Below are positions 3-51,751 of a stretch of 64,000 nt of DNA, piece after piece. The DNA is from a virus. The stretch's first letter is position 1; every line of letters starts with the position of its first letter. A program made the position numbers and the translations under genes. The DNA lies in IMG/VR virus record IMGVR_UViG_3300021371_000007, positions 17,947 through 81,946 of that record; one strand, 5' to 3'. Below the pieces are notes generated by a model. That model searched no databases and had not been told where the DNA came from. It saw only the letters and a program-made list of their open reading frames with translations.

Positions 3-3000
3 GTTGCAGCTTTTGAAAAATTAGGTCAAGTAATTAGAAGTGATGATGGTAGTGTTACTACAACTACTGATAGAGCTGCAGAAGCAGTAAGAGAATTAAA
101 TCTTGCGGTAGCTAATAGAGAGTTTATGGAAAAATCTATTAAAGGTCTTTTATTAGGTCAAGTAGAGGCTGTAAAACAACAAACTAGAGAGCTTGAAAAG
201 CAATCAAGAATAGCTAGACAACAACTTCAACAGGCAACTTTAAAAGCAGAAATAGACATATCTAAGGCGCGACTTACTTCTCTTAATAAAGCTAGAGCAG
301 AAGAAATAAGTATTAGAAAAGTAAAAGCTGACGGTGCAGCAATATCTAGTGATCTAGCAGCAGCAGAGTTATCTATAGCTAGAGATATCTTATCTGAGAG
401 AGAAAAGTCTATAGATATACAACAAGAACAGCTTAAAATAGTATCTCAAATAGCAGAAGAAAGAATAAAAGGAGCTAAAGAAGAGCTATCAGCACAAAAA
501 CAAATGATATCTTTAGCTAAAGAGGGTCTAGCCTTTGATGACTCCTTCTTTGACAAAGATATTACTAAGATACTAAATTTACTTGCTGACATAGGATCAG
601 CTTCTTTAGACGTAGAAATATCTCAAAAAGAGACAGATTTAGCAGAAAAGCAAGCAGAAACAGCAGCTCAATTAGCAAAGTTAGAAGCAAATAAGCAAAC
701 TTTTGCAGCAGAAATACTGGCAAAAGAACAAGAACTATCTTTACTAGAGATAGACTCTAGAGTTGCAGATCTTAGTGCTCGTATAGAGATTTCAAGAGCA
801 GAGAGACAAAATGAAATTGATTCCCTCACTGAGAGACGCAGCATAGCTGAGTTAGAAGCACAACTAAAAAGAGAGACTTATGCAGCTAATCTAGAAAATA
901 AAAGAGAAGAGTTAAAAATACTAGACCAAAAAAGACAAGATACTATAAAACTAGTAGATTCTTTTAATAATCTAACTACTGATATGGGTACAGAGTTTGA
1001 TACCTTTATATCGGAATTACAAGCAACTTTAAGTACTCAAAAAATAGCACTAGAAGCAAAAGAGACTATTGTAGTAGACCCTTCTGATGACAAAAGTGCT
1101 GATCCTGTACAATCTAGTGCAGAGGCATTAAATAAATCCGCAGATTCTCTAGAAACTGTTGCTAAAGAAACATCTACTTTAGTAGAAGAAGTTACTAACA
1201 CAGGACAATCTTCTTTAGACTCTTTACAGGCGTTAGAAACTTCTGCACAAGCTACTAATGAGATAGCTAAAATAACTAATACTACGTTAGATACCACTAT
1301 TTCTAACAAAAAAATAGAAAATGATTTAATAAGTAAAAACGAAGATGAAAGACTTGCTGCTTTAGGAGCTGAAAGTGCTGCACTAAAAGAGAAACACGCA
1401 ATTGAGACTGAGAATAGTAATGCAGCACTAGAAACTGCAAACAAAACTGCTGAATTAGAAGAAGAAAAAGCCAAAAACGCCGAAGCTGCTTTACAAGCTC
1501 AAATAAAAGCAAACCAATTAGCTCAGAGACAAGCTGCTTTTCAGATTATGAATCAAACAGGAACCTTACTGAGAGAGCTATCAGTAGGTAGGGCTGAAAA
1601 AGCAAGAGATAAAGCAGCAGAGAGTAGAGATAAGGTACTGGATAAACAGGAGGAAGTACTATCTAGAGTAAGCTCTTTGAGAAGTTCTGAGGCCGATGCT
1701 ATGGCTGGAGCTGTTGATATTTTAAAAGAACGCAGAGCCTTAGAAAGAGATATAATTTCTTCTATTGCAGACAGTGATGCTAGTGGTTACTTAAAAACTA
1801 CAGAAGCTTATTTTCAAAACTTAAATGCCTTAGATGAGCAAACTAAAGTATTAAGTGAAGCTCAAGCTAATAGAGCTATAGCAGAAGCAGAGCTAGCTGT
1901 TCAAGACTATAAAGTTATAGAAGCGACTAATAACTTATCTAGTGCAGAAAAAGATTTAGAAAACGCACACAACAGTTTAGTAGGTAAAACAGGAGATGTA
2001 CTTCAAAAATTTGGAAGCTTAGGTAATAGTATGGTTAGCTTAGTAGGCTTAGCCCAACAACTAACGGGCGCCTTTACTACTCTAGGTAATACTTTAGTAG
2101 GCTCAGTAACTGGAGAGAGTAATAATCAAATTACTGAAGCAGTAAAAGATGGTTTTGATAAGTCAAAAGCTGCTGAAACTTCTGCTCAAGTTACAGGAAA
2201 TGTAGTTACAGACTTAAAAAACGTTCTTGTAGGTAGTGTAAGAGAGTTAGGTGGTGCATTTGAAAGATTTAATCAAGAAAGTATTGGAGCTGCAGGAGGC
2301 GCTGCTCAATATTTTGCAGAATCTGACGGTAGTTTAACAGATTTTGCTGCTGCGGGCTTAGGTAAAGCAGTTACTCCTATGATAACTGGGTTTATAGAAG
2401 ATTTTATTACCACAGCTTTAGGTCCTGTAGGTGGTATAGCTATGACTGCTATAGATTTTATAGCAGGAGACTTTATATCTGGAGTTATTGGTGACGCGCT
2501 AGAAGGTATTAGTAACTTTTTTGCTCCTCGTAAGTGGAATAGATCAACTGTTGATTTAACTACTGGTAATATAACAGATAGAAAAGATAGTGGAGTTGAT
2601 CTGGATCCTGTAGCTAAATCAGCATTTAAAATGAATCAAGCATTAGAAACTGTTACTGGAGGTCTTCAAAGATTTACTGAATCACAAGCAATACTAACCA
2701 CTAAAGGTTCAGATATTAGAGAAAGATTCTTAGAGCTAAGGGGCGGTGGAGCTGAGGCAGTTAGATTAGACTTTAATAGCGAAAACTTTGGTAAGGACTT
2801 ATTTGAAGGACTTATTAAAGGCTTAGATCCTAGATCTTTAACGGAAGACATGAAAACCGCTATAGGTAATATGGACTTCGGTAAAGAGATAGAAGATAAC
2901 ATGAAAGACCTTAATTTTGCTAAAGGCTTTGATGGTTTGATGACGCAATTAGAATCTGCAGGAGGTAAATTTACTAATCTTGGTGAGTTTATAGAATTAG

Positions 3001-6000
3001 TAAATATTAAAGCAGAAGCTGCAGCTGCTTCATTTGCGCAAGGAGCCTTACAGCAAGCATTAGACTTAATAGAAGAATCTGGAAGAGTGTTCGGAGAACA
3101 ATCTGAACAAGTACGAAGAGCAAAAGATGCAGCTCAGAATATGGTTTTAGCGCATTTAGATTTACATGTAGCGGAAGATCGCACTGTAAGCCTACTTAGT
3201 GATACGTCTACTAATTTGAGTGGCATGGCTATGGCTATGGAGACTGTAAAAGCAGAAATGAATGCTATGCAAGAAGCTATTGAGGCTACAGGGGTTAATG
3301 CTGACGAAGCTTCTAGAATAATAGAAGAAGGCATAACACTTAAAATTAGACAAATGGCTCAAGACTTTGGGGATGCGTTAAGTGACGTAATTCAGTTTGG
3401 TGATAGTCTAGAATCAAGCGCTGTTCAAGGATTAAAAGATGTTTTAGAATATCAACAGGCTATAGTAAGAGATGCTGCCCATATTCAAGAACAGCTAGGT
3501 AATGGTTATGATTTTATAGCTCGTGCAGAAAAAGCTTTAGCTATTCAAAGAGGTAATATAGTAGCTAAAGCTTCAGATCAAGAATTAAAAGCTCTTAGTG
3601 ATTTAGCAGGTGCAGGACAAGAATTTAGTAACGCTGCTATGAAAGCAGCTACTGATGCTGAAATAACTAGAAGAGTTATGAATAATATATTTGAGGGGGC
3701 AAAACAGCTTACTCAAGCACAAAGAAGTTCAAGATCTGTAGGAAGAGGTCTGGCTTTTGCTGAGGGAGGTTTTGTACCAGGTACCCCTGAACAACAAAAT
3801 AAAGACTCAGTGCCTGCATTACTAATGCCTGGAGAGTATGTATTAAATAAAGAAGCAGTTAAGAATGTTGGAGTAGGAACTTTAGCTGCTTTTAATTCTG
3901 GAGCTTTTAAAAAGATGGAAGCTGGGGGTAGTACTACTGGAGGAGTCATTACTCCTAATAAAATAGCTACTGATGCTTTTGGGGGTACTTTTGGTATAGA
4001 CCCTGCTACTCAAGCACTATTCAAAAACTTTAGTCAAGATATGACTACTACTTTAGAGTTTTATGAAGCTAGAGAGCTAGTTGCTCAAGCTAATATAGAA
4101 CTTTTTGAGACTTATTCAGACCTTAGAGAGGCTGCAGGGGCTAGCAATGATCTTATGAATGCTTTTGGTCTTATAGTAGATCATATAGAGCGAGGGGAAA
4201 TAGGTCTCGCTACTGCAGTATTTGATATAGCACATAATCTAACAGAAGCCACTAGCGCTACAGAAGCTTATACTCTTTCTCTATCTCAAAATCAAGCACA
4301 ACAAGCTTTAGCTTCTGCCGGTGTTAATTTACAAAATGAAAATATAGACACTTTAACAGATAACTTAACTAGTTTCTACACTAGTATAAATACGTCTTCT
4401 GTAACTGCTGGAGATTTAGAAGCTGTAATAAGTCAAATGAATATAGCGCTATCTCAAGGAGTTATATTTGGTAGTGAGTATGGATCAATACTAGATGATG
4501 TTACTTCAGATTTTGATAATGCTTTAGCAGCCTTAGATGAATATTCTTCTTTCTTCTTAGAGCTTCAAGATATTACTTTAGACCCTACAGGAATTATAAG
4601 CTCTATAAGATCTGTTCAGTATGCATTTGAAGATGGTATGAATACTATGACAGATGCGGTCACAGATGGATTTATAGATACAATAGAAGCTGCTACTGTA
4701 CAAGTTAGACTTAATAAAAGACTAGAAAAAGAAAGAATAGATTTAATTAAAAACTCTTCAGATGAGCAACTTAGAATAATTAGAGATACACAAGATTCAA
4801 TTGCAGACGCAACTTTTAAAACAGGCGCTATAGCAGAAATAGCTGTTAGAAAAATACTAGCAGTATCTTCTGCTTTTGGTACCTTTGAACAAGGATTAGT
4901 AGGTTTTTATAATAACTTAGTACAATCATCAGATAACTTTACTAGAACTTTAAGTGCTTCTGTAGTTAGTAGTATACAAGCAGCAGGTATAGTAATAGAT
5001 GATGAGTTAGATACTAATTTCTTAGGTACACTAACTAATTTTGCTACACTATCTAAAAGTGGTTCTTCAAGTGTTCAAGCACTATCTACTGCGTTAGAAC
5101 AATTAAATTATCAGTTAGAGATTGGAGAGACTATAGACACTGACACTTATAAAGAGGGAGTGGCCTTTTTACAGTCTTCCTTTATGGAGTTTTTAGATTT
5201 ATTTAGTGGTATGTCTAATGCCTTTAGAGAAGCAGAATCAAACCTTGATAATTTTAAAACTACTTTACACTCTTCTTTCACCTCTATAACTGATGAACTA
5301 GAAGCTTTACTTAAAACTTTAGTAACTACTTATAGAACTACTTTAGCAGATGTTAAGACTATGTATCAAGAAGCAGTATCTCAACAAAAAGAAGCAGAAG
5401 AGTCATTATATGGAGTATTATTTAGTGCGCAAAATGCCTTTATAGATGCTGGAGGACATTTAGATGGTCACATATCTAGAATAGATGATATTGTAAAAGG
5501 TTTAGATCCTACATATCAGGGATATGCAGGATTAGATCAGTATTTAAAACAACTTCAAATAGATGTTCAAGCAGGTATCACTTCTTTAGGCGATATAAAC
5601 ACATCTCAATCTTTAGCAGCACTACAAACTAATCTTTCTAATAGTTTAGCAGACTTAGCCATACTTCAAACACTTCCTGATTCTGCAGATAAATTTGTAA
5701 AAATAAGTAGAAAACTTTCAGAAATAGATGATATTAATAATCAAATATCTGCAGGAACTCAATCTACAGACGCACTAAAAGAAGCTACGTTAGACTTACT
5801 AAAAGTTGAAGAAGAGCTAAACTTTAATAATACTACTGCAGGACTACAACAAGTAGACTTAACCTTACAAGGTATAAGTCAAGATTTGCTTCAAAATGCT
5901 ATAGATGCTAGAACTGCATTTAATACTTCTAATCAACTTTTAGATGATTTCACTACAGCTTTAAACGCTAATTTTACTCCTAATTTAGTAGCTTCTACTA

Positions 6001-9000
6001 CTGCTGTTAATAGCAGCACATTAAGTCTGTCTTCCTTTATAGCAGAGATGCAATCTGCTAATCAAGTATTTTCAGACATAACTACTGCGGTTTCTGCTAT
6101 AAATGCTACAGGAATTCAAGAAATAATAGATACCTTAGATGTAATATCTAACCCTACGGATGAAGTGAATGTAGATGTAGTAGATACTAGTTATAGAGGT
6201 ATTTCAGATTTAAACGATATTTTAAGTAACTTTACTGGCATAGTCGCTGCCAAAACTGCTTTTGAAAATCTATATGGATCAATAGCTGCAGTAACTCCTG
6301 TTTTACCTTTACAAGAATTTAATGACTTAAATGCTGAATTTATAAATTTAGAAAATACAATAACTTCATTACTAGGTACTATGGGTAATAATAGTATTGC
6401 GGATATGGATGCAACTTTTGAGCAATTTGTATTAGACTCTATAGCTTTATTACAGAATCCTTTAACTTTATCAGGAGTTTCTACTTCAGGTTCTACAACT
6501 AATATAGCTGCTCAAGCTATTACAGGTTCAGGAGCTGTTAATAATCCTCAAATAAGTACTCAAACTTCTTTACTTCAACAAATTTTAACTCAAGGTTTAG
6601 GGGTTCAGAGTCCTGGCTACTTATTCTACACTAATCAAATATTAGAGCAAATAAGAACAGTATTAGAAGATATGTTAGTATTACAAGGAGGCACTCTACC
6701 TACTTATGCTAATATCACTTCTACCTTTACTGCTCCTACAGCAACTGGAAGTACTACTACTGCTACTGTGCCTACAGGAACTACTACAGGATTACCTAGT
6801 TTAAATCAATCAGGAATACTAGGCCTTACGGGTCAGCTATTTGAAGTAGAAGAGCCTATAACTAGACCTGCTGATTATTTTTATATTGTAATACCTAAAC
6901 TTGTTGCTATAGACGAATTTTATATAGTAGACCCTATTGAAGTAGATTATGAGTTTTTCTTTGATCTAACTCCTGTATCTGTTACTTCTATAGACACTGG
7001 TAATGGAGGGGATCATTTCTTTAATATAACTACAGTAGATACTGATTTTGATAAATGGTTTAATGCTCCAACTTTAATAGACACTGAATATAGTAAATGG
7101 TTTAATGATCCCACTGTAATAGATACTAACTTTAATAAGTGGTTAAAAATTGTAGAAGAAGAAACAGGTATTTTTGATTGGGTCACAATAACTAAGTCTG
7201 CAGCTAATTATCAAACATTCTTTGAGGCACCTACTAAGGTAAATCACTCTGTAGCTACTTGGTATAACTTACCTACCAAGTTAGATAATACAGCTAATTT
7301 ATGGTATAACTTACCTACCAAGAAAGATATAGACTATACAGATTGGTTTACGTTAAATAAAGTAGCTGTTAAATACTCGCAGTTTTTTGATCCCGAAGAT
7401 AAAATAGCTTTAACAGATCATATAGATCCTGTTACAGTAGCTGCAGATTCTTTATTTACTATAAACAAAAACTCAAAAGATGCTGATGATTTATACTCTA
7501 TAAACTCTATAGAAAAAGACTATTCAACCTTCTTTAAAATAACAGCTAAAGATTTTGATTATACAGATTTCTTTAAAATAGTTGAAAAAGATATTACTGA
7601 TTTTATACAAATATCAAAATCCACAAAGACGGCTATAGAGCTATTCACTATTCAAAAAAGTGAAGTAACAGGTAGCACTTTATTTTCTATAACAGCAGAT
7701 TCAGTAGCAGCGTCTACACTTATAACTGTAAAGGCCAATAATAGAATACAAGTAGGAGCAGATGAGATATTTGATAAACCTACCTCAAAAATGGCTTTAA
7801 GCTTGTCAGATATATTTAGTAATTATGAAAGCGGTGCTTTTGATTGGACAAAAGCTGTAATAAGTGTAGGCCAAGTAATTAATGAGGACAAGCTTAAAGA
7901 AGGTCTGGCAAATAAGGCTATTCTTGCTACGGGTGATATTTTTGATAACTGGAACGGTTCAGGCTTTGATATTGATAGTGTTGACATTAGCTACTTAGAT
8001 TTATTTAACTTAGCAGTTACAGATATAGAATATACAACACTATTTAAACTGCCTAATGATGCAGGCAAAGAAAGTTTACACTGGAGTAGCTGGTTTAAAG
8101 TAGATCCTGCAGATAAAATGGATGCAAGAGATTTATTTACTTTTATATCTCCTGAACCCGTATCCGCCCTTGATTTATTTAATCCTACATCTCAATCGGT
8201 AGATGGGTCTGCTCTTTTTGTATTAAGTAATACTTTACAAAAAATAGATGCTAATAATCTTTATGACATTGAAAAAGAAACTAAAGCGGCTACTGACTTC
8301 TTTACTATTACAGGAGTGCAACTTAAAGGCGCAGACTTTATTGATTTAAGTTACTTAGCCGACTCTAAATATATAGCAGAAGCTAAGAATGTATTAGACG
8401 TTACCGGTAAGCTTACTGTTCAATCTTCTGATGTATTCAAAGTATCCGGTACTTTAGATAAAACAGCTAATCAAGTATATAATATAACCAAGAGTGATAA
8501 AGCAGGAGCTGCTTTCTGGGAAGTTACTGCTAGTGAGCAATCAGGGGCTTCTTTCTTTACGCCTACTAAAAGTGAATTAGCAGGTTTAAATTTCTTTAGT
8601 CCTACTCAAAGCACTATAACAGCTAACGATTTATTTAACTTTAATAAAGTAAAAATAGATGTTAGCACTATGTTTGAATCTGAGTTATCTACTCTAACAG
8701 ATGCAGTTAATGATCAAGATAGCTACTTAATTACTAACTATGGCAAATTAGAAACTATAAAAAGTTATACTAAAGTATCTAGTGAGAAGCTTACAAATAT
8801 CGCAAAAGCAGATTCAGATTTTCATGCTGCTATATTAGAAGATACTGCCTACTTAGAAACTATTGCTACCTCTTTAGGAGATTTAGCTGATATTAAAGCT
8901 AATACTGCCGATATTAAAACTAATACTTCTGTAAACGTATCTAAGCTTACTAAAATAGAAAATAATACAGACGGTATAGAAGAGAAATTAGATCATATTT

Positions 9001-10373
9001 CTGATGATTTAGATGGTATTGCAAAAGACTTGGCAGATAAATTAGATCATATTTCTGATAATTTGGATACTTTAGAAAAAACTGCAAACGCTATTGAAGG
9101 GTATGTATTATATCTACCTGGCATGTCTACAGAGCTTACCGATCAAGGAAAAACTTTGGTTACTATAGATAGTGTATTAGACGCTATAGAAATAGACACT
9201 TCAAATATGGTTACCTACCTAGAAAGCATAGCTACTAATAGTGCATATCTTAAAACAATAGATCAAGATACAAGCCATTTAAAAACTAATGCAGATAATA
9301 AAATCTCTCATATTTCTGGTAATTTAGATGATATAATAAGTAATACAGATAAGAACAGAACTCGCTATAAATACTCAGGCGCTACATCAGTTAACTTAGC
9401 AACTGGAGGTCCTGTAGTGGGGCCAGGAACTTCTACTAGCGACTCTATTCCTGCCAACTTGTCCAACGGTGAGTATGTAATAAAAGCTTCTTCTGCTAAA
9501 AGTATGGGTAGAGAGGTGTTAGACATGCTTAATTCTACAGGGTCTATATCCTCACTAGGTAGAAAAGGAGATACAGAATTAGCGCATATTAACACTGTAG
9601 AAGCACAAATGCTTAAGTCAATAGGTGGTTCAGGCTCTAAAAATCCTCTTTCTGGTCTTAAAGAGTTTTTCTTTGATGACTTTAATCCTTTAACAGGTCT
9701 TAAAGACGCTGCACTCTCTGCTGCTAAATCAATTATAAGTAACACAAATAATCCAGAAGGTTATAGGCCAGAAAAAATAGGTAGTAATGCTAGTTGGAAT
9801 ACCGCAAACTTTGCTAATAATACTTTTGCTAAAAAAGTACTAGTAGAGCTTACAAGATATATAGCAGCTAATAGAGATGGAAAAGCCTTTACTCACTCTC
9901 AAGCCTTTAACTCTATTTCTGATGCATGGTTTGAGTATGATAAACCTAATATTATACAATTTAATAGAGGTTCCTCGTTTAACAACGGTATCAGAGGTAC
10001 AAGTAGTATAAGTAGCTTAATAACAAGACTTCAAAATGCTTATCCTTCTTTTGCTAACGGTGGTGAGATTTCAGGTGCTGGTACTAGTACTAGTGACTCT
10101 ATAATGGCTATGTTGTCGGACGGTGAGTATATTATTAGAAATTCATCTGTTGACAATGTGGGGGTAAATACTTTAGACTATATAAATAATACGGGACAAC
10201 TACCTCAAGGCGACACTAATGTAGAAGTAAATATTACTAATAATGGGTCTCCAGTGGACGTAGAAGCTGAGCCTAAAGTTAGTATAATAGACGGTAAGGT
10301 AGTGGTAGATGTTATACTTAAAGATTTAAGAACTAATGGTCCTATTAAGAAGACTATTAAGAAGATAAAGTAG
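3..10373 (+). CDS. Giant tail tape measure-like protein (5' end outside window)
   Basis: Frame is open from nt 3 (VAAFEKLGQ...) into the 3415-aa ORF. Ala/Glu/Leu-rich coiled coil; three FAxGG...D.(V/I).A.L..GEY(V/I) motifs typical of TMP C-termini; lies directly before tail-tip genes. Confidence 0.85.
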   Translation, partial: VAAFEKLGQVIRSDDGSVTTTTDRAAEAVRELNLAVANREFMEKSIKGLLLGQVEAVKQQTRELEKQSRIARQQLQQATLKAEIDISKARLTSLNKARAEEISIRKVKADGAAISSDLAAAELSIARDILSEREKSIDIQQEQLKIVSQIAEERIKGAKEELSAQKQMISLAKEGLAFDDSFFDKDITKILNLLADIGSASLDVEISQKETDLAEKQAETAAQLAKLEANKQTFAAEILAKEQELSLLEIDSRVADLSARIEISRAERQNEIDSLTERRSIAELEAQLKRETYAANLENKREELKILDQKRQDTIKLVDSFNNLTTDMGTEFDTFISELQATLSTQKIALEAKETIVVDPSDDKSADPVQSSAEALNKSADSLETVAKETSTLVEEVTNTGQSSLDSLQALETSAQATNEIAKITNTTLDTTISNKKIENDLISKNEDERLAALGAESAALKEKHAIETENSNAALETANKTAELEEEKAKNAEAALQAQIKANQLAQRQAAFQIMNQTGTLLRELSVGRAEKARDKAAESRDKVLDKQEEVLSRVSSLRSSEADAMAGAVDILKERRALERDIISSIADSDASGYLKTTEAYFQNLNALDEQTKVLSEAQANRAIAEAELAVQDYKVIEATNNLSSAEKDLENAHNSLVGKTGDVLQKFGSLGNSMVSLVGLAQQLTGAFTTLGNTLVGSVTGESNNQITEAVKDGFDKSKAAETSAQVTGNVVTDLKNVLVGSVRELGGAFERFNQESIGAAGGAAQYFAESDGSLTDFAAAGLGKAVTPMITGFIEDFITTALGPVGGIAMTAIDFIAGDFISGVIGDALEGISNFFAPRKWNRSTVDLTTGNITDRKDSGVDLDPVAKSAFKMNQALETVTGGLQRFTESQAILTTKGSDIRERFLELRGGGAEAVRLDFNSENFGKDLFEGLIKGLDPRSLTEDMKTAIGNMDFGKEIEDNMKDLNFAKGFDGLMTQLESAGGKFTNLGEFIELVNIKAEAAAASFAQGALQQALDLIEESGRVFGEQSEQVRRAKDAAQNMVLAHLDLHVAEDRTVSLLSDTSTNLSGMAMAMETVKAEMNAMQEAIEATGVNADEASRIIEEGITLKIRQMAQDFGDALSDVIQFGDSLESSAVQGLKDVLEYQQAIVRDAAHIQEQLGNGYDFIARAEKALAIQRGNIVAKASDQELKALSDLAGAGQEFSNAAMKAATDAEITRRVMNNIFEGAKQLTQAQRSSRSVGRGLAFAEGGFVPGTPEQQNKDSVPALLMPGEYVLNKEAVKNVGVGTLAAFNSGAFKKMEAGGSTTGGVITPNKIATDAFGGTFGIDPATQALFKNFSQDMTTTLEFYEARELVAQANIELFETYSDLREAAGASNDLMNAFGLIVDHIERGEIGLATAVFDIAHNLTEATSATEAYTLSLSQNQAQQALASAGVNLQNENIDTLTDNLTSFYTSINTSSVTAGDLEAVISQMNIALSQGVIFGSEYGSILDDVTSDFDNALAALDEYSSFFLELQDITLDPTGIISSIRSVQYAFEDGMNTMTDAVTDGFIDTIEAATVQVRLNKRLEKERIDLIKNSSDEQLRIIRDTQDSIADATFKTGAIAEIAVRKILAVSSAFGTFEQGLVGFYNNLVQSSDNFTRTLSASVVSSIQAAGIVIDDELDTNFLGTLTNFATLSKSGSSSVQALSTALEQLNYQLEIGETIDTDTYKEGVAFLQSSFMEFLDLFSGMSNAFREAESNLDNFKTTLHSSFTSITDELEALLKTLVTTYRTTLADVKTMYQEAVSQQKEAEESLYGVLFSAQNAFIDAGGHLDGHISRIDDIVKGLDPTYQGYAGLDQYLKQLQIDVQAGITSLGDINTSQSLAALQTNLSNSLADLAILQTLPDSADKFVKISRKLSEIDDINNQISAGTQSTDALKEATLDLLKVEEELNFNNTTAGLQQVDLTLQGISQDLLQNAIDARTAFNTSNQLLDDFTTALNANFTPNLVASTTAVNSSTLSLSSFIAEMQSANQVFSDITTAVSAINATGIQEIIDTLDVISNPTDEVNVDVVDTSYRGISDLNDILSNFTGIVAAKTAFENLYGSIAAVTPVLPLQEFNDLNAEFINLENTITSLLGTMGNNSIADMDATFEQFVLDSIALLQNPLTLSGVSTSGSTTNIAAQAITGSGAVNNPQISTQTSLLQQILTQGLGVQSPGYLFYTNQILEQIRTVLEDMLVLQGGTLPTYANITSTFTAPTATGSTTTATVPTGTTTGLPSLNQSGILGLTGQLFEVEEPITRPADYFYIVIPKLVAIDEFYIVDPIEVDYEFFFDLTPVSVTSIDTGNGGDHFFNITTVDTDFDKWFNAPTLIDTEYSKWFNDPTVIDTNFNKWLKIVEEETGIFDWVTITKSAANYQTFFEAPTKVNHSVATWYNLPTKLDNTANLWYNLPTKKDIDYTDWFTLNKVAVKYSQFFDPEDKIALTDHIDPVTVAADSLFTINKNSKDADDLYSINSIEKDYSTFFKITAKDFDYTDFFKIVEKDITDFIQISKSTKTAIELFTIQKSEVTGSTLFSITADSVAASTLITVKANNRIQVGADEIFDKPTSKMALSLSDIFSNYESGAFDWTKAVISVGQVINEDKLKEGLANKAILATGDIFDNWNGSGFDIDSVDISYLDLFNLAVTDIEYTTLFKLPNDAGKESLHWSSWFKVDPADKMDARDLFTFISPEPVSALDLFNPTSQSVDGSALFVLSNTLQKIDANNLYDIEKETKAATDFFTITGVQLKGADFIDLSYLADSKYIAEAKNVLDVTGKLTVQSSDVFKVSGTLDKTANQVYNITKSDKAGAAFWEVTASEQSGASFFTPTKSELAGLNFFSPTQSTITANDLFNFNKVKIDVSTMFESELSTLTDAVNDQDSYLITNYGKLETIKSYTKVSSEKLTNIAKADSDFHAAILEDTAYLETIATSLGDLADIKANTADIKTNTSVNVSKLTKIENNTDGIEEKLDHISDDLDGIAKDLADKLDHISDNLDTLEKTANAIEGYVLYLPGMSTELTDQGKTLVTIDSVLDAIEIDTSNMVTYLESIATNSAYLKTIDQDTSHLKTNADNKISHISGNLDDIISNTDKNRTRYKYSGATSVNLATGGPVVGPGTSTSDSIPANLSNGEYVIKASSAKSMGREVLDMLNSTGSISSLGRKGDTELAHINTVEAQMLKSIGGSGSKNPLSGLKEFFFDDFNPLTGLKDAALSAAKSIISNTNNPEGYRPEKIGSNASWNTANFANNTFAKKVLVELTRYIAANRDGKAFTHSQAFNSISDAWFEYDKPNIIQFNRGSSFNNGIRGTSSISSLITRLQNAYPSFANGGEISGAGTSTSDSIMAMLSDGEYIIRNSSVDNVGVNTLDYINNTGQLPQGDTNVEVNITNNGSPVDVEAEPKVSIIDGKVVVDVILKDLRTNGPIKKTIKKIK
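7260..7322 (+). repeat. Intragenic 21-nt direct repeat, 42-nt period (WYNLPTK x2)
   Basis: TGGTATAACTTACCTACCAAG at 7260-7280 and 7302-7322. Confidence 0.9.
8985..9059 (+). repeat. Intragenic 21-nt direct repeat, 54-nt period (KLDHISD x2)
   Basis: AAATTAGATCATATTTCTGAT at 8985-9005 and 9039-9059. Confidence 0.9.
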
Positions 10374-26008: not shown

Positions 26009-26084
26009 TGGTGCTCCCACACGGACTCGAACCGCGGACCTATTGATTACAAATCAATTGCTCTACCAGCTGAGCTATAGGAGC
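26009..26084 (-). tRNA. tRNA-Thr(TGT)
   Basis: GCTCCTATAGCTCAGCTGGTAGAGCAATTGATTTGTAATCAATAGGTCCGCGGTTCGAGTCCGTGTGGGAGCACCA; 76 nt cloverleaf with encoded CCA. Confidence 0.97.
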
Positions 26085-48803: not shown

Positions 48804-49561
48804 ACGTCATTCCAATCTACTAAGGGGGTTACACAATTATCTTGTAGGTGAGTAGCAGTACCAGGTAAAGGACAAACAGCTACATTTTGTCTAAAAGCTT
48901 TCCAAGTCCAAGAATCGTCTGAAAACAGACCTGCTTGTAATATAGAAAACTTAAACGGTAAGAATGTTTTTCCTTTTGCAGCTAAAGTTAATGTTGCGCT
49001 GCTAACTGTTTTTAAGTGACAATCAGGGCCTACTAATACTTCTACCATTCTATCTTTATCAAAATATCTATCTGGGTAATCATAAGGCAAATAAAAACCT
49101 TCATACCCTGCTTTAAAAACATTTTTCATAGTTTTTATGGCAGTTTTAGTATGAAGGTAGTCGTCTTCGCATAAATATATTAGCTCTTCAGTATTTGCTT
49201 CTGCTATTTCTATTAAGTTTTCCATTAAAGGAATACAAGTATTTACTGTAACAGGATGATACTGAGGGTAAGGATGCTCTCCAAAAGGAGGCACTTCAGT
49301 TCTGTTTGGTATATCTTTTATTTCTAATTTAGTAGGTATAGAACACGTTTCTCGCATCCAAGATTTAGTTTCTTCAGTAACTGTATCTGCTAATACTATA
49401 ATTTTATCATCCCAGCCTTCTAAATCTTGCTGTAAAGAAAGCCAACATTTTCTAAAGATCTCGTCTTTCTTTTTTCCATTCCATCTGGGCTTATCTTGTG
49501 AGCCGTCTGATGTACTTCCTGGAGACTTATTAGCTTCTGAAGCTCTATATACTATTATCAT
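48788..49561 (-). CDS. GT-A fold glycosyltransferase-like protein
   Basis: IYLCEDDYLH, YDYPDRY, PLPG.ATH. Confidence 0.6.
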   Translation of the reverse strand: MIIVYRASEANKSPGSTSDGSQDKPRWNGKKKDEIFRKCWLSLQQDLEGWDDKIIVLADTVTEETKSWMRETCSIPTKLEIKDIPNRTEVPPFGEHPYPQYHPVTVNTCIPLMENLIEIAEANTEELIYLCEDDYLHTKTAIKTMKNVFKAGYEGFYLPYDYPDRYFDKDRMVEVLVGPDCHLKTVSSATLTLAAKGKTFLPFKFSILQAGLFSDDSWTWKAFRQNVAVCPLPGTATHLQDNCVTPLVDWNDVWNQW

Positions 49562-50154
49562 TTTGTTACTTTTTTTCTTGAGAAATTTCTATACTCATCA
49601 ATAATACTTATAAGATAAGGATCTAAAGGTTCTATACCTTCTCTTACAAATTTTTCTATCTCATCTTTTTGTGTATTATTAAAGTTATTTTTATAAATAG
49701 AAGAACGATATACTCCTCTTGTTTTAGAAGGATTACCAAACACTTTAGAAAAAGGTTTTACGTCTTTTATTATAGGAGAAAATGTTCCTATAAAAGAATG
49801 ACTACCTACTGTAGAATAATTTTGTATATGAGCATTATACTCTATATAAACATTATTTTGAATAACACTATGAAAACCTAAGTAACAACAACCTGTTATA
49901 GTATTATTATTGCCTATCAAAGTATCACTATTAATAGTAGTACTTGGGCCTATATAATTGCCACTTCCTATAACAGTACTTTCTCTATAACCAGTTGCGC
50001 AGTTAATAACACATGCTGAAAGTATAGTATTGTTTTTACCTAGTGATATTCCATATTTATCATCTTTTACTAAAAACACAACTGAAGGGTCAATAGTATT
50101 AGAAGAATCTATAGAAAATTCTATAATAGCTTTGGAGGCAGAGTATACTTTCAT
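49558..50154 (-). CDS. Left-handed beta-helix protein, LpxA-like
   Basis: Hexapeptide repeats plus KDVKPF..V.GNP...RG and a helical C-domain as in LpxA. Confidence 0.7.
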   Translation of the reverse strand: MKVYSASKAIIEFSIDSSNTIDPSVVFLVKDDKYGISLGKNNTILSACVINCATGYRESTVIGSGNYIGPSTTINSDTLIGNNNTITGCCYLGFHSVIQNNVYIEYNAHIQNYSTVGSHSFIGTFSPIIKDVKPFSKVFGNPSKTRGVYRSSIYKNNFNNTQKDEIEKFVREGIEPLDPYLISIIDEYRNFSRKKVTK

Positions 50155-50175
50155 AGTGTTATTCAAAATAATGAG

Positions 50176-50482
50176 TGTCACTTTTTCTGTTGCTAGGCAA
50201 GTGACCAGCCCCCTTAATTATGCAGCTAGTGCGTAATTAGATGGTGCAAAGTTATCGTTTGCATTTGTAAAGTTTGGCTGAATATCGTAGGCCAACACGG
50301 TAATCTACTCTCATCTCTTCACGTCAGTCGATCCTAGTTCAGCCCCATCAAAAACACACTGTTGCTCAAGGTTGCGATCCTACAAGACTTACTGACGCCT
50401 AAACGTACTCAGTGTGCTTATGGTGGAGCTGCGCGGTACTGCCCCGCGGTCCTGTCCATGTGTTGACTTGTATCAACGATTA
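50176..50482 (-). ncRNA. ssrA: Circularly permuted (two-piece) tmRNA, alphaproteobacterial type
   Basis: Acceptor piece ends GACCGCGGGGCAGTACCGCGCAGCTCCACCA at 50421; 74-nt intervening segment; coding piece starts GGGGCTGAACTAGGATCGAC at 50346; tag frame 50262-50218 = ANDNFAPSNYALAA*. Outer ends approximate. Confidence 0.93.
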
Positions 50483-50483
50483 C

Positions 50484-50530
50484 AAAAAAGAGGTTTAATA
50501 CGATAGAGATATCGCAGTTAGTGACCTCTT
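50484..50530 (-). terminator. Hairpin plus U-tract immediately upstream of tmRNA
   Basis: AAGAGGT...TGCGATA-TCTC-TATCGTA...ACCTCTTTTTT. Confidence 0.5.
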
Positions 50531-50637
50531 AATTCCTTATTTATTTTTTGTCTTATCTTCTTATTAGACAGCTGTTTTAGTTTCTTTTTCCATGACTTAG
50601 ATAGTGCATGAGGTATTACTCCATTTTTAGGATTCAT
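50518..50637 (-). CDS. Small basic protein (39 aa, not in ORF track)
   Basis: AGGAG RBS; MNPKNGVIPHALSKSWKKKLKQLSNKKIRQKINKELRGH. Confidence 0.6.
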   Translation of the reverse strand: MNPKNGVIPHALSKSWKKKLKQLSNKKIRQKINKELRGH

Positions 50638-50646
50638 TATATTCTC

Positions 50647-50814
50647 CTATAAAGAAACTATACTAGTACTTCCTTTTTCTTTATTGGTAATTCTAGCATT
50701 ATAGTTTCTAAGCCTATTAAACCGGCTAGGCCGTTTATAAGGTGCAAACTTCAAAGGATTATTATGGAGTTTTTCTACAGCTTCGTTAATAATTTTATCT
50801 TTTTCAGTATTCAT
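50647..50814 (-). CDS. Small basic protein (55 aa, not in ORF track)
   Basis: MNTEKDKIINEAVEKLHNNPLKFAPYKRPSRFNRLRNYNARITNKEKGSTSIVSL; follows a promoter-like sequence. Confidence 0.55.
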   Translation of the reverse strand: MNTEKDKIINEAVEKLHNNPLKFAPYKRPSRFNRLRNYNARITNKEKGSTSIVSL

Positions 50815-50843
50815 GCGGTACTCTCTTTTTTATTATATAGTTA

Positions 50844-50872
50844 ATATTAACACTAAAAATAGTAGTTAGCAA
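50844..50872 (-). promoter_or_regulatory. Sigma70-type promoter
   Basis: TTGCTA-N17-TGT-extended TAATAT, the same pattern as the D5 promoter. Confidence 0.5.
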
Positions 50873-50885
50873 CAAAAATTTAAAT

Positions 50886-51152
50886 TTAAGATTTGGAGTT
50901 TGGTGTATTTTTTTGCTTCTTTGTGTAGCCTGCTTTTCTTTCTAACTTTTGCATTAGCGCTTGTCTTTTAGCTTCTGCTTTTCTGTATCTAGCTTTACCA
51001 GCTTTTTTAGCTTCTCTAAGCTTTTCAGATTTAGAAATATAGTAACTTTGTCTTTTAGCATCTGTATAAAACCCATCAGCATTTAATTTTCTCATCATAA
51101 TTTTATATGCTTTAGAGACGTCATTATTATATTTTTTTATACTTATTTTCAT
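50886..51152 (-). CDS. rpsU: Ribosomal protein bS21 homologue
   Basis: MKISIKKYNNDVSKAYKIMMRKL..DG....K.QSYYISKSEKLREAKK..KAR; start at ATG 51152 after AAGGT. Confidence 0.82.
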   Translation of the reverse strand: MKISIKKYNNDVSKAYKIMMRKLNADGFYTDAKRQSYYISKSEKLREAKKAGKARYRKAEAKRQALMQKLERKAGYTKKQKNTPNSKS

Positions 51153-51460
51153 TAATTTACCTTTATATAGTTTTGTATCCAGGAAGATAAGTGACCTGCA
51201 CAATATTTACCTATAAGTTTGGATATAATTCCATTATTTTTAGTTACCACAAACATAGGTGTTGTAATATTTTTTGAGAGGTCCGCACTGTTTACACTTT
51301 CTGTATTAATTCCTAGATCTTGCAGTGTGAGCAGTTCTCGTTGCACATAGGTTTTATTAAATTTGTTAAAATATCCTGTAACCTTCTTCAACTTGTTTCT
51401 CCTATTAGTCTGACACTTTTTAAGAGTAGACATATTTTGATTTAATTTTATTCTTGCCAT
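51152..51460 (-). CDS. Thioredoxin-fold-like protein lacking CxxC (start may be TTG 51391)
   Basis: ITTPMFVVTKNN..ISKLIG...LSSWI resembles a thioredoxin C-half. Confidence 0.4.
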   Translation of the reverse strand: MARIKLNQNMSTLKKCQTNRRNKLKKVTGYFNKFNKTYVQRELLTLQDLGINTESVNSADLSKNITTPMFVVTKNNGIISKLIGKYCAGHLSSWIQNYIKVN

Positions 51461-51511
51461 TTATAATTTTTCATGCTAATATTAATTTATAACAACAGGT
51501 AAGCAAATAAT

Positions 51512-51751
51512 ATGAAAGATTATCAGAATGAATTGAGCCGTTGTCTATCCGTAGTAAAGTGGAATCCTAATGAAGCACTCTCTGAGATGAACCTCTTAAG
51601 AGACGAAGCATTAAGTTCTCCTTTAAAAGAAAAACTTTGGAAGCGTAAGGCTCGTGAAATAAATAACTTTTTAGATTCTTTAGAAAACACTCGTTACTAT
51701 AAAGAATCTGAATTCTGGAAAAACTCAAAACCAAGTAGGTTAATAATATAA
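51512..51751 (+). CDS. Hypothetical protein
   Basis: First ORF after the strand switch; coupled to the next ORF. Confidence 0.55.
   Translation: MKDYQNELSRCLSVVKWNPNEALSEMNLLRDEALSSPLKEKLWKRKAREINNFLDSLENTRYYKESEFWKNSKPSRLII

What the first reader, a model, noticed from the sequence alone, without database searches (positions are those of the whole stretch)
50176..51460. Compact ribosome-control module: bS21, two unannotated basic peptides and tmRNA
Seen: rpsU, then a promoter, a 55-aa ORF, a 39-aa K/R-rich ORF and the tmRNA, all co-oriented at the head of the minus-strand region. The 55-aa ORF has a weak by-eye likeness to ArfA (NEAVEKLHNNPLKF...NKEKGS versus recalled DNAIEALLHDPLF...NKKGKGSY). 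Known: phage bS21 and phage tmRNAs are each documented, and ArfA is the backup rescue factor to tmRNA. Inference: the cluster may be an undescribed system coupling initiation control and ribosome rescue, with the peptides acting as ribosome-binding factors.
Basis: partly seen in the sequence, partly recalled or inferred. Interest (0 to 1): 0.75.

Follow-up and report, generated by a model that had tools for sequence, protein, structure and literature searches.

The report
Phage bS21–tmRNA locus with two leader peptides
A marine phage carries a ribosomal protein S21 gene and a complete split tmRNA gene, and two real but orphan small basic protein genes lie between them, apparently in the tmRNA's own transcript; they are not detectable relatives of the rescue factor ArfA, and what they do is unknown.

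Summary
All four elements are real. bS21 (50886-51152) passes the Pfam and NCBIfam cut-offs. The tmRNA (50174-50524) is a complete permuted alpha-type gene with tag ANDNFAPSNYALAA. ORF55 and ORF39 are intact in 7 of 7 relatives and under purifying selection (dN/dS 0.03-0.25).

The ArfA reading fails. The Pfam ArfA model gives no hit. The KGKGS hallmark is not conserved. A 19-residue local likeness (P about 0.001 against enterobacterial ArfA) falls to P 0.045 against a diverse ArfA profile. An exhaustive profile search finds ORF55 only in this phage clade.

The wider pattern is that bS21 followed by a tmRNA recurs: 31 of 80 related bS21 loci, all apparently in one broad phage group with a T5-type DNA polymerase. 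The stretch between the two genes is a variable slot. The nearest outgroup has nothing there, and its tmRNA lies directly behind the same promoter-like element that precedes ORF55 here. So the peptides sit in the tmRNA precursor's leader, as a clade-specific insertion. A ribosome role is possible but is inferred only from co-transcription and basicity.

First-stage notes of this scan flagged the same module on two other genomes.

The parts
51152..51460 (-). orf102, a 102-aa protein of no known family. Its stop overlaps the bS21 start (TAATG).
   Evidence: ORF list. No Pfam or NCBIfam family. Intact in 7 relatives; in L015 the alignment-based read from the window's ATG stops after 7 codons, but a 93-aa form from a later ATG is intact. 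An 80-aa homologue lies upstream of bS21 in outgroup L237.
50886..51152 (-). Phage bS21 (rpsU homologue), 88 aa.
   Evidence: Pfam PF01165 30.5 bits against cut-off 27. TIGR00030 30 bits against 28.95. dN/dS 0.03-0.23 against relatives.
50844..50872 (-). Promoter-like element TTGCTA-N17-TGtTAATAT (extended -10 type).
   Evidence: Read from the sequence. Unchanged in the ~91-99% relatives and nearly so in L015. The same element lies directly in front of the tmRNA in outgroup L237, and similar ones precede the first slot gene in L246, L249 and L243. Not listed by the generic scan.
50647..50814 (-). ORF55, a 55-aa basic protein (pI 10.3) of an orphan family.
   Evidence: Intact in 7 of 7 relatives, with an in-frame 6-codon insertion in L015. 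dN/dS 0.13-0.25. The only relatives among 1.84 billion representatives belong to the same clade.
50518..50637 (-). ORF39, a 39-aa very basic protein (pI 11.4). It starts 9 nt after the ORF55 stop, behind an AGGAG.
   Evidence: Intact in 7 of 7 relatives. The first 31 residues are nearly invariant. dN/dS 0.03-0.19. It is the most basic of 19 small ORFs in the window.
50174..50524 (-). Two-piece (circularly permuted) alpha-type tmRNA gene. Acceptor piece about 50483-50421, excised variable segment about 50420-50347, coding piece about 50346-50174, tag frame 50262-50218.
   Evidence: Rfam RF01849 97.8 bits and RF04321 112 bits. ARAGORN tag ANDNFAPSNYALAA. The intervening segment is hypervariable while both pieces are conserved. 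Compensatory changes in the T-arm across lineages. Relatives all score above threshold.
50149..50173 (.). Arm 1 of a perfect 25-bp inverted repeat. It starts 1 nt after the tmRNA model ends and covers the RBS and ATG of the next gene.
   Evidence: It closes a 273-nt domain in the RNA fold.
49851..49875 (.). Arm 2 of the 25-bp inverted repeat, inside the hexapeptide-transferase ORF.
   Evidence: L011 keeps the pairing through one double (A-U to G-C) change and two G-U changes.
49558..50155 (-). Hexapeptide-repeat transferase gene downstream of the tmRNA (context).
   Evidence: Pfam Hexapep 2.9e-11. A homologue lies downstream of the tmRNA in L237 too.

Best explanation
This is the translation-related gene cluster of an uncultured marine phage whose DNA polymerase is T5-like.

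Shown:
- a bS21 gene, translationally coupled to the gene before it;
- a complete two-piece tmRNA gene whose structure is under constraint;
- between them, two real, selected protein genes for very basic peptides of 55 and 39 residues.

Inferred from comparison with the nearest outgroup:
- The promoter-like element just after the bS21 stop is the tmRNA promoter.
- In this clade a two-gene cassette (ORF55-ORF39, tightly coupled) lies between that promoter and the tmRNA. The peptides are therefore translated from the 5' leader of the tmRNA precursor, and the tmRNA pieces are then cut out.
- bS21, then promoter, then a variable slot, then tmRNA is a conserved layout of a broad phage group. Slot contents differ from lineage to lineage.

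The peptides are a clade-specific orphan family and not ArfA relatives. My odds for their function:
- about 55%: cargo using a strongly expressed slot, with a role unrelated to ribosomes;
- about 35%: small RNA- or ribosome-binding proteins that act with the tmRNA or bS21;
- about 10%: something else.
For: Element identities.

Coding status:
- Both ORFs are intact in 7 of 7 relatives, with frame-preserving indels in the 78%-identical L015.
- dN/dS is 0.13-0.25 for ORF55 and 0.03-0.19 for ORF39, against 0.03-0.23 for bS21.
- Both are called as genes on dozens of public contigs.

Leader position:
- In L237/L238 (bS21 73% identical; DNA polymerase of L238's record 82% identical) the order orf102-like, bS21, tmRNA, hexapeptide transferase is kept. 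Only 24 nt (to the nhmmer match start) separate the bS21 stop from the tmRNA.
- The element TTGCTAAGTGGTATTTTTTATGTTAAATT lies there, aligned with the window's element upstream of ORF55.
- No room or motif for a promoter was seen between ORF39 and the tmRNA.

Recurrence:
- 31 of 80 related bS21 loci have a tmRNA acceptor piece downstream on the same strand, and none upstream or on the opposite strand.
- The count is 29 of the 75 loci that hold at least 1000 nt downstream, and 12 of 18 bS21 clusters at 70% identity.

Slot variability.

Orphan status.

Basicity: ORF39 ranks first and ORF55 third among 19 ORFs of 100 aa or fewer.
Against: - No direct transcript mapping. The promoter is a 4/6 + 4/6 consensus match that the generic scan did not list.
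- The RNA-library contigs that bridge ORF39 and the tmRNA start (X15, 243 nt, identical; X18, 312 nt, from a relative) could come from contaminating DNA. One RNA-library contig also runs across the divergent region at 51460-51512.
- The direction of the event (insertion here or loss in L237) is not rooted.
- The tmRNA-linked records in which a polymerase was found (8 of the 15 tmRNA-linked records searched; none in the 3 unlinked ones) all share one polymerase type at 55-82% identity. The linkage may therefore be plain inherited synteny in one phage group, not repeated selection.
- The 80 loci are the best 80 of 131 relatives of this bS21, so they are not an unbiased sample.
- ORF39 could not be searched in the large protein libraries: it is too short for one, and the single job of the other went to ORF55.
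Confidence: 0.6

Rival explanations
1. One reading: the two peptides are ribosome-binding (or tmRNA-binding) factors that work together with bS21 and the tmRNA as one initiation-plus-rescue control system.
For: - They are co-oriented with the tmRNA and probably co-transcribed from its promoter.
- Extreme basicity relative to the phage's other small proteins.
- Near-invariant N-terminal 31 residues of ORF39 across both subclades.
- The commonest slot occupant in other lineages has a weak match to an Sm-like SH3 barrel family (WYL_2, E 0.007, below cut-off), a fold class that often binds RNA. That last point is my own knowledge.
Against: - The nearest outgroup keeps bS21 and the tmRNA without the peptides.
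- Slot contents in other lineages are unrelated and mostly acidic.
- No likeness to bS21, SmpB or any PDB ribosomal chain.
- No binding test was possible.
Confidence: 0.25
2. ORF55 is a divergent ArfA-type alternative rescue factor that recruits a release factor to stalled ribosomes.
For: - hhalign of the ORF55 profile against E. coli ArfA or an enterobacterial ArfA alignment aligns ORF55 residues 4-22 with ArfA residues 7-25: 37% identity, P 0.0026 and 0.0015.
- 0 of 300 column shuffles reach the score.
- ArfA homologues do occur in phages: GenBank phage records and HTVC027P gp30, seen in passages of PMC12753301.
- Both proteins have a basic C-terminal half.
Against: - The Pfam ArfA model gives no hit at E<=1 on the protein or at E<=10 on the six frames of the record.
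- Against a diverse 9-sequence ArfA profile (bacteria and phages) the score falls to 13.5, P 0.045, probability 1.2%.
- KGKGS is invariant in the enterobacterial set and present as KGKGS or KGRGS in 8 of 9 diverse ArfAs. In ORF55 variants it reads KEKGS, KEKES or KEKVS, 22 residues further on, and it is absent in the L015/P0005 subclade.
- ORF55 ends in a conserved stop with a coupled downstream gene, so there is no non-stop layout.
- The likeness was picked by eye after reading the sequence.
Confidence: 0.04
3. The two ORFs are not translated; the stretch is only a structured or spacer leader of the tmRNA precursor.
For: They are short, lie in a leader, and have no homologues outside the clade.
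Against: - Synonymous changes outnumber non-synonymous ones per site several-fold.
- Indels keep the frame, and both stops and starts are kept at 78% DNA identity.
- A good AGGAG precedes ORF39.
Confidence: 0.05

Closest known systems
Phage-encoded two-piece tmRNA (ssrA) of Methylophilales phage Melnitz and pelagimyophages (Buchholz et al. 2022, PMC9004378; abstract, passages and section 8 read)
   Same: A complete, circularly permuted, alpha-type tmRNA in a marine phage, said there to lie just downstream of an early promoter. 53 predicted two-piece tmRNAs among phage isolates, 50 of them from marine or aquatic phages.
   Different: That paper never mentions S21 (0 occurrences). It describes a glutamine riboswitch at the 3' part, which Rfam does not find here at gathering scores. 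The phage here has a T5-type polymerase and a J-type tail fibre, not a T4-like layout. Leader-encoded peptides are not described there. Its Table S1 could not be seen.
Phage bS21 (Pelagibacter phage HTVC008M; Mizuno et al. 2019, PMC6375957, passages seen)
   Same: A small viral S21 homologue. The viral protein was shown there to enter ribosomes.
   Different: No tmRNA is mentioned there (0 occurrences). Zaragoza-Solas et al. [quoted passage not shown] Here and in 30 further loci it is followed by a tmRNA.
ArfA (YhdL, Pfam PF03889), including phage copies
   Same: Size, basic C-terminal half, and a short N-terminal likeness to the enterobacterial sequence.
   Different: No model hit, no conserved KGKGS, no non-stop layout, and the likeness fades against a diverse profile.
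   Same: Small basic protein genes riding on a phage tmRNA precursor; variable content between relatives.
   Different: There the slot is the excised segment between the two tmRNA pieces. Here it is the 5' leader between promoter and tmRNA, and the excised segment (about 74 nt) holds no ORF.

Membership tests
ArfA (PF03889) | Significant match to the family model | tested here: not met
   hmmscan found no hit at E<=1. Six-frame search of the whole record found no hit at E<=10, while the E. coli control scored above the cut-off.
ArfA (PF03889) | Conserved KGKGS(Y) motif in the channel-binding tail | tested here: not met
   Invariant in 15 enterobacterial ArfAs and present as KGKGS or KGRGS in 8 of 9 diverse ArfAs. 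In ORF55 the nearest string is KEKGS, KEKES or KEKVS, and it is missing in the L015/P0005 subclade.
ArfA (PF03889) | N-terminal hydrophobic segment ending in P-x-F | tested here: inconclusive
   19 columns align at P 0.0015 with enterobacterial ArfA, and 0 of 300 shuffles reach the score. Against the diverse profile P is 0.045 and probability 1.2%.
ArfA (PF03889) | Expression from a truncated, stop-less mRNA (feature of E. coli arfA, recalled) | tested here: not met
   A conserved in-frame stop is followed 2-9 nt later by the coupled ORF39.
ArfA (PF03889) | RF2-dependent release on stalled ribosomes | not testable with these tools
   Needs biochemistry.
Ribosomal protein bS21 (PF01165 / TIGR00030) | Score above the curated cut-offs | tested here: met
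   30.5 bits against 27; 30 bits against 28.95.
Ribosomal protein bS21 (PF01165 / TIGR00030) | Incorporation into the 30S subunit | not testable with these tools
   Shown for HTVC008M bS21 in PMC6375957 (passages), not for this protein.
Two-piece (permuted) tmRNA (RF01849, RF04321) | Covariance-model score above gathering, over the full model length | tested here: met
   97.8 bits against 50 (positions 1-355) and 112 bits against 47 (positions 1-213). The same holds in 8 related loci.
Two-piece (permuted) tmRNA (RF01849, RF04321) | Tag reading frame ending in a hydrophobic ALAA-type degron | tested here: met
   ANDNFAPSNYALAA*. Related tags in other lineages all end in LAA.
Two-piece (permuted) tmRNA (RF01849, RF04321) | Acceptor piece before coding piece, joined by a dispensable segment closed by a helix | tested here: met
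   The segment at about 50420-50347 is replaced or resized in relatives while its flanks are kept. A flanking helix is seen in L235 and L237.
Two-piece (permuted) tmRNA (RF01849, RF04321) | Base pairs kept by compensatory change | tested here: met
   T-arm variants CGCGG/CCGCG, TCGGG/CCCGA, CTGGG/CCCAG, TGCGG/CCGCA, CCGGG/CCCGG and GCGGG/CCCGC across lineages.
SmpB (PF01668) | Match of either peptide, or of any frame of the record, to SmpB | tested here: not met
   No hit at E<=1 in the record, which is 73% complete. hhalign of A6 and A5 against E. coli SmpB gives P 0.15 and 0.49.

The most novel reading that the evidence does not exclude
The layout 'bS21, promoter, variable slot, two-piece tmRNA' is a conserved ribosome-takeover operon of a large group of marine phages. 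The tmRNA leader would be a dedicated place for small proteins that act on the ribosome or on tmRNA. ORF39 (near-invariant, pI 11.4) and ORF55 would then be a new family of such factors, for instance steering trans-translation or bS21-modified ribosomes towards or away from host messages.
Probability: 0.2. Interest if true: 0.75.

Novelty: new variant of a known kind. Interest (0 to 1): 0.45.

Why it matters
Phage bS21 and phage tmRNAs are each in print, but I found no paper that links them. Passages of PMC6375957, PMC9004378, PMC8163748 and PMC7029224 were also checked. One of these papers states that phage S21 belongs to no gene cluster.

A conserved bS21-then-tmRNA layout with an exchangeable leader slot gives a concrete, testable unit for asking how abundant marine phages reshape host translation. 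It also points to a set of small proteins, including ORF39 and ORF55, that are expressed together with the tmRNA.

The case also shows that a by-eye ArfA likeness can pass a shuffle test and still fail when the family profile is broadened.

Tried and rejected
- **ArfA kinship:** rejected.
- **ORF55 as a shortened bS21, or ORF39 as bS21-like:** hhalign P 0.38 and 0.22.
- **SmpB-tail mimicry:**
- **Known families:** Pfam, PHROGs and NCBIfam gave nothing for either peptide.
- **PDB by sequence:** only chance-level rows. The best was KRIPP9 at E 0.018 for ORF55 and selenoprotein S at E 0.087 for ORF39.
- **ESM Atlas:** no usable hit for ORF55, and only unnamed 'hypothetical' clusters for ORF39.
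- **Exhaustive profile search for ORF55:** 4 rows. Two belong to the same clade. Two are repeat-rich eukaryote-like proteins that matched through 9-11 short repeats, which I treat as spurious.
- **Phage GenBank records:** no DNA match to the module and no tblastn match to this bS21 at E<=1e-3. No cultured phage shows the L243-type layout.
- **The 12-bp palindrome GTTAATATTAAC in the promoter region:** unique in the window, but 59 of 100 shuffles give at least one match, so nothing follows from it.
- **T4-type capsid model on 16 records:** nothing rang anywhere, controls included, so it is uninformative.
  - Only 5 showed this bS21 type in the DNA held, and none showed ORF55, ORF39, orf102 or the transferase.
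  - Of the first 50 whole records, 5 have an S21 match. By my arithmetic these lie about 0.45, 4.8, 9.3, 16 and 92 kb from the tmRNA.
  - So adjacency is not general among tmRNA-bearing viral contigs. Most of those records are fragments under 25% complete.
- **Search for diverse ArfAs:** the one genome-contig scan returned only Enterobacteriaceae-like copies of 81% identity or more. A sample of 201 genomes of E. coli's class gave 3 with ArfA.
- **RNA-library contigs:** parts without cover, and the depth figures, say nothing. The higher word depth over the tmRNA sums other organisms' tmRNAs.
- **Host:** not determined.
- **Supplementary files:** never requested. Table S1 of PMC9004378 (phages with tmRNA) may bear on whether the S21 adjacency is listed somewhere.
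Full report
**What the window is.** The window is part of an 81.9-kb IMG/VR virus record judged 73% complete.
- Its large genes are a J-type central tail fibre, family-A DNA polymerase, DnaB helicase, SbcC-like nuclease and ribonucleotide reductase.
- The polymerase is 38-40% identical to those of Providencia, Proteus, Vibrio and Enterobacter phages of 97-122 kb. I recall these as T5-like.
- Near-identical DNA occurs in public runs from 13 studies, mostly labelled marine or seawater.

On the minus strand, from the divergent point at 51460/51512, the order is as follows.
- orf102 (51152-51460). Its stop overlaps the bS21 start.
- bS21 (50886-51152), above the Pfam and NCBIfam cut-offs.
- A 71-nt spacer with TTGCTA-N17-TGtTAATAT at 50872-50844.
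- ORF55 (50647-50814).
- Nine bases holding an AGGAG.
- ORF39 (50518-50637).
- A complete circularly permuted alpha-type tmRNA: RF01849 97.8 bits at 50174-50524 and RF04321 112 bits at 50218-50483. The tag is ANDNFAPSNYALAA.

No SmpB is encoded in the record held.

**The two small ORFs are genes.**
- Eight related viral contigs were fetched. Seven cover the ORFs, at 78-99% DNA identity.
- Both frames are intact in 7 of 7. In the most distant one (L015), ORF55 has a six-codon in-frame insertion and a changed C-terminus. ORF39 changes only at its last residues.
- Nei-Gojobori estimates give dN/dS of 0.13-0.25 for ORF55 and 0.03-0.19 for ORF39, like bS21 at 0.03-0.23.
- Public gene callers already list both. 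The window's exact ORF39 sequence was seen on 49 contigs, the longest about 173 kb, and one member of its cluster carries the name 'hypothetical protein'.
- In a crude set of 77 ORFs, ORF39 (pI 11.4) is the most basic and ORF55 (pI 10.3) the third most basic of the 19 ORFs of 100 aa or fewer.

**The peptides belong to no known family.**
- Pfam, PHROGs, NCBIfam, PDB sequences and the ESM Atlas gave nothing usable.
- A profile of ORF55 scored against 1.84 billion representatives found 4 proteins at E<=0.001. Two are its own clade (55-aa and 61-aa forms). Two are repeat proteins matched through many short stretches.
- ORF39 is too short for the word-indexed library, so its wider search is incomplete.
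- Neither peptide occurs a second time in the record, nor in the held parts of the nearest outgroup contigs.

**ArfA.**
- ORF55 residues 4-22 align with E. coli ArfA residues 7-25 at 37% identity, P 0.0026. Against 15 enterobacterial ArfAs P is 0.0015 and probability 17%. No column shuffle out of 300 reaches the score.

It does not behave like homology.
- The Pfam ArfA model misses ORF55 at E<=1, and misses the whole record in six frames at E<=10.
- I assembled a diverse ArfA set of 9 sequences. It holds E. coli, two divergent bacterial copies found with the Pfam model, and six phage copies from GenBank records, two of which are annotated ArfA.
- In that set the common core is P-x-F-R...K-G-K-G-S-Y, with KGKGS or KGRGS in 8 of 9.
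- Against this profile the ORF55 profile scores 13.5, P 0.045, probability 1.2%.
- ORF55 also ends in a conserved stop, with ORF39 coupled behind it.

I put ArfA kinship at about 4%.

Phage ArfA genes do exist. One is HTVC027P gp30 (PMC12753301, passages). Earlier notes of this scan on other genomes also report them, which is why I tested further instead of dismissing the likeness.

**The tmRNA is functional-looking.**
- Both pieces are conserved in relatives. The segment between them (about 50420-50347) is replaced, shortened or lengthened, as expected for the excised part of a two-piece precursor.
- A helix flanking that segment is kept.
- The T-arm shows six different fully paired versions across lineages.
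- Eight related loci score above Rfam thresholds.
- Two-piece tmRNAs in marine phages are already described (PMC9004378).

**What recurs is bS21 followed by a tmRNA.**
- A search with a six-sequence bS21 alignment returned the best 80 of 131 viral loci, each with 1.5 kb on either side.
- ARAGORN finds a two-piece tmRNA in 17 of them.
- An nhmmer profile of the acceptor piece finds 31 of 80, every one downstream of bS21 on the same strand.
- That is 29 of the 75 loci with at least 1000 nt downstream, and 12 of 18 bS21 clusters at 70% identity.

Caveats apply.
- The 80 loci are chosen for likeness to this bS21.
- In a separate search of 18 records (15 tmRNA-linked, 3 not), a polymerase was found in 8, all tmRNA-linked and 55-82% identical to the window's, and in none of the 3 unlinked records.
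- So this is probably one broad phage group, and the linkage may be inherited synteny.
- Sampling from the tmRNA side shows that adjacency is not general. Among the first 50 of 120 tmRNA-bearing viral records, 5 have an S21, at about 0.45 to 92 kb.

I found no paper that links the two genes.
- Mizuno 2019 and Buchholz 2021 hold no 'tmRNA'.
- Buchholz 2022 holds no 'S21'.
- Zaragoza-Solas 2020 says S21 is part of no gene cluster.

**The slot.** Contents between the bS21 stop and the tmRNA differ by lineage.
- This clade has ORF55 plus ORF39.
- L237/L238 (bS21 73% identical) have nothing: 24 nt lie between the bS21 stop and the nhmmer match start.
- Most other lineages have an acidic 82-87-aa protein (MKAYKG.FKKK...GMELVWDLE), alone or with further small genes.
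- Others have a 140-aa acidic protein or membrane-like ORFs.
- hmmsearch with the ORF55 and ORF39 profiles over all ORFs of the 80 loci finds significant hits only in the 7 loci of the own clade.

**The leader model.**
- L237 keeps the order orf102-like, bS21, tmRNA, hexapeptide transferase.
- After its bS21 stop comes TTGCTA-N17-TGtTAAATT, and then at once the start of the tmRNA.
- The window has the aligned element after its bS21 stop, but then ORF55 and ORF39 follow before the same tmRNA start.
- Similar TTGCTA elements follow bS21 in L246, L249 and L243, ahead of the first slot gene. In most lineages the last slot ORF runs up to the tmRNA.

I infer that this element is the tmRNA promoter and that slot genes, here ORF55-ORF39, are translated from the precursor's leader.

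Weak support comes from two contigs in RNA libraries of two studies that bridge ORF39 and the tmRNA start. One is X15 (243 nt, 50429-50671, no differences). The other is X18 (312 nt, 50461-50756, from a relative). DNA carry-over cannot be excluded.

**Verdict.**
- Observation: confirmed.
- Interpretation: partly supported.
- The peptides are real and co-expressed with the tmRNA on present evidence.
- They are a clade-specific insertion, orphan, and not ArfA.
- Whether they touch the ribosome is open, at about one chance in three.

Noticed in passing
window 49851-49875 and 50149-50173: A perfect 25-bp inverted repeat. One arm starts 1 nt after the tmRNA model ends and covers the RBS and ATG of the hexapeptide-transferase gene. 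The other arm lies 273 nt on, inside that gene. The RNA fold closes the whole domain with this helix (z -2.8). Six relatives keep 24-25 of 25 positions paired (Watson-Crick or G-U): L011 by one A-U to G-C double change plus two G-U, and L015 with one mismatch although its flanks are about 20% diverged. It could be an RNase III-type site that separates the tmRNA precursor from the next message, a block on that gene's start codon, or a DNA inversion site. L237 has only a weak analogue (19 nt, 79% complementary).
   Followed up: partly
window 49877-50121: In RNA run X18 a 290-nt contig with Illumina adapter letters at both ends covers exactly the inside of the two repeat arms, at word depth 180 against about 5 around it. 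It is seen in one library only and may be a PCR jackpot.
   Followed up: no
L243:1807-2070, and the same gene in L239-L242, L244-L246, L248, L249, L251, L261, L262, L267, L270, L282 and L292: An acidic 82-87-aa protein (MKAYKG.FKKK...GMELVWDLE.D.FR.FNW) is the commonest gene between bS21 and the tmRNA in other lineages. It has a weak, sub-threshold match to Pfam WYL_2 (Sm-like SH3 barrel, E 0.007) and to phrog_1086 of unknown function.
   Followed up: partly
window 51152-51460; L237:1262-1504; L245:1247-1504; L254:1244-1495: The gene before bS21 recurs in several lineages. Its C-terminal part (…TPMFVVTKNNGIISKLIGKY…) reminds me of the second half of a thioredoxin fold without a CxxC; that is recalled, not tested. 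In the window its stop overlaps the bS21 start.
   Followed up: no
L246:2182-2352, L249:2115-2297: Cys-rich 56-60-aa ORFs (C..CGHRCHC...) lie just before the tmRNA in two lineages. Pfam finds no family for the L246 copy, the only one scanned.
   Followed up: no
window 3-10373: One open frame of at least 3456 aa runs off the window's start. It was not examined.
   Followed up: no
literature: [quoted passage not shown] The bS21-then-tmRNA layout in 31 of 80 loci does not fit that statement for the phage group sampled here.
   Followed up: partly
window 26009-26084: A single tRNA-Thr (TGT) lies next to the ribonucleotide reductase genes.
   Followed up: no
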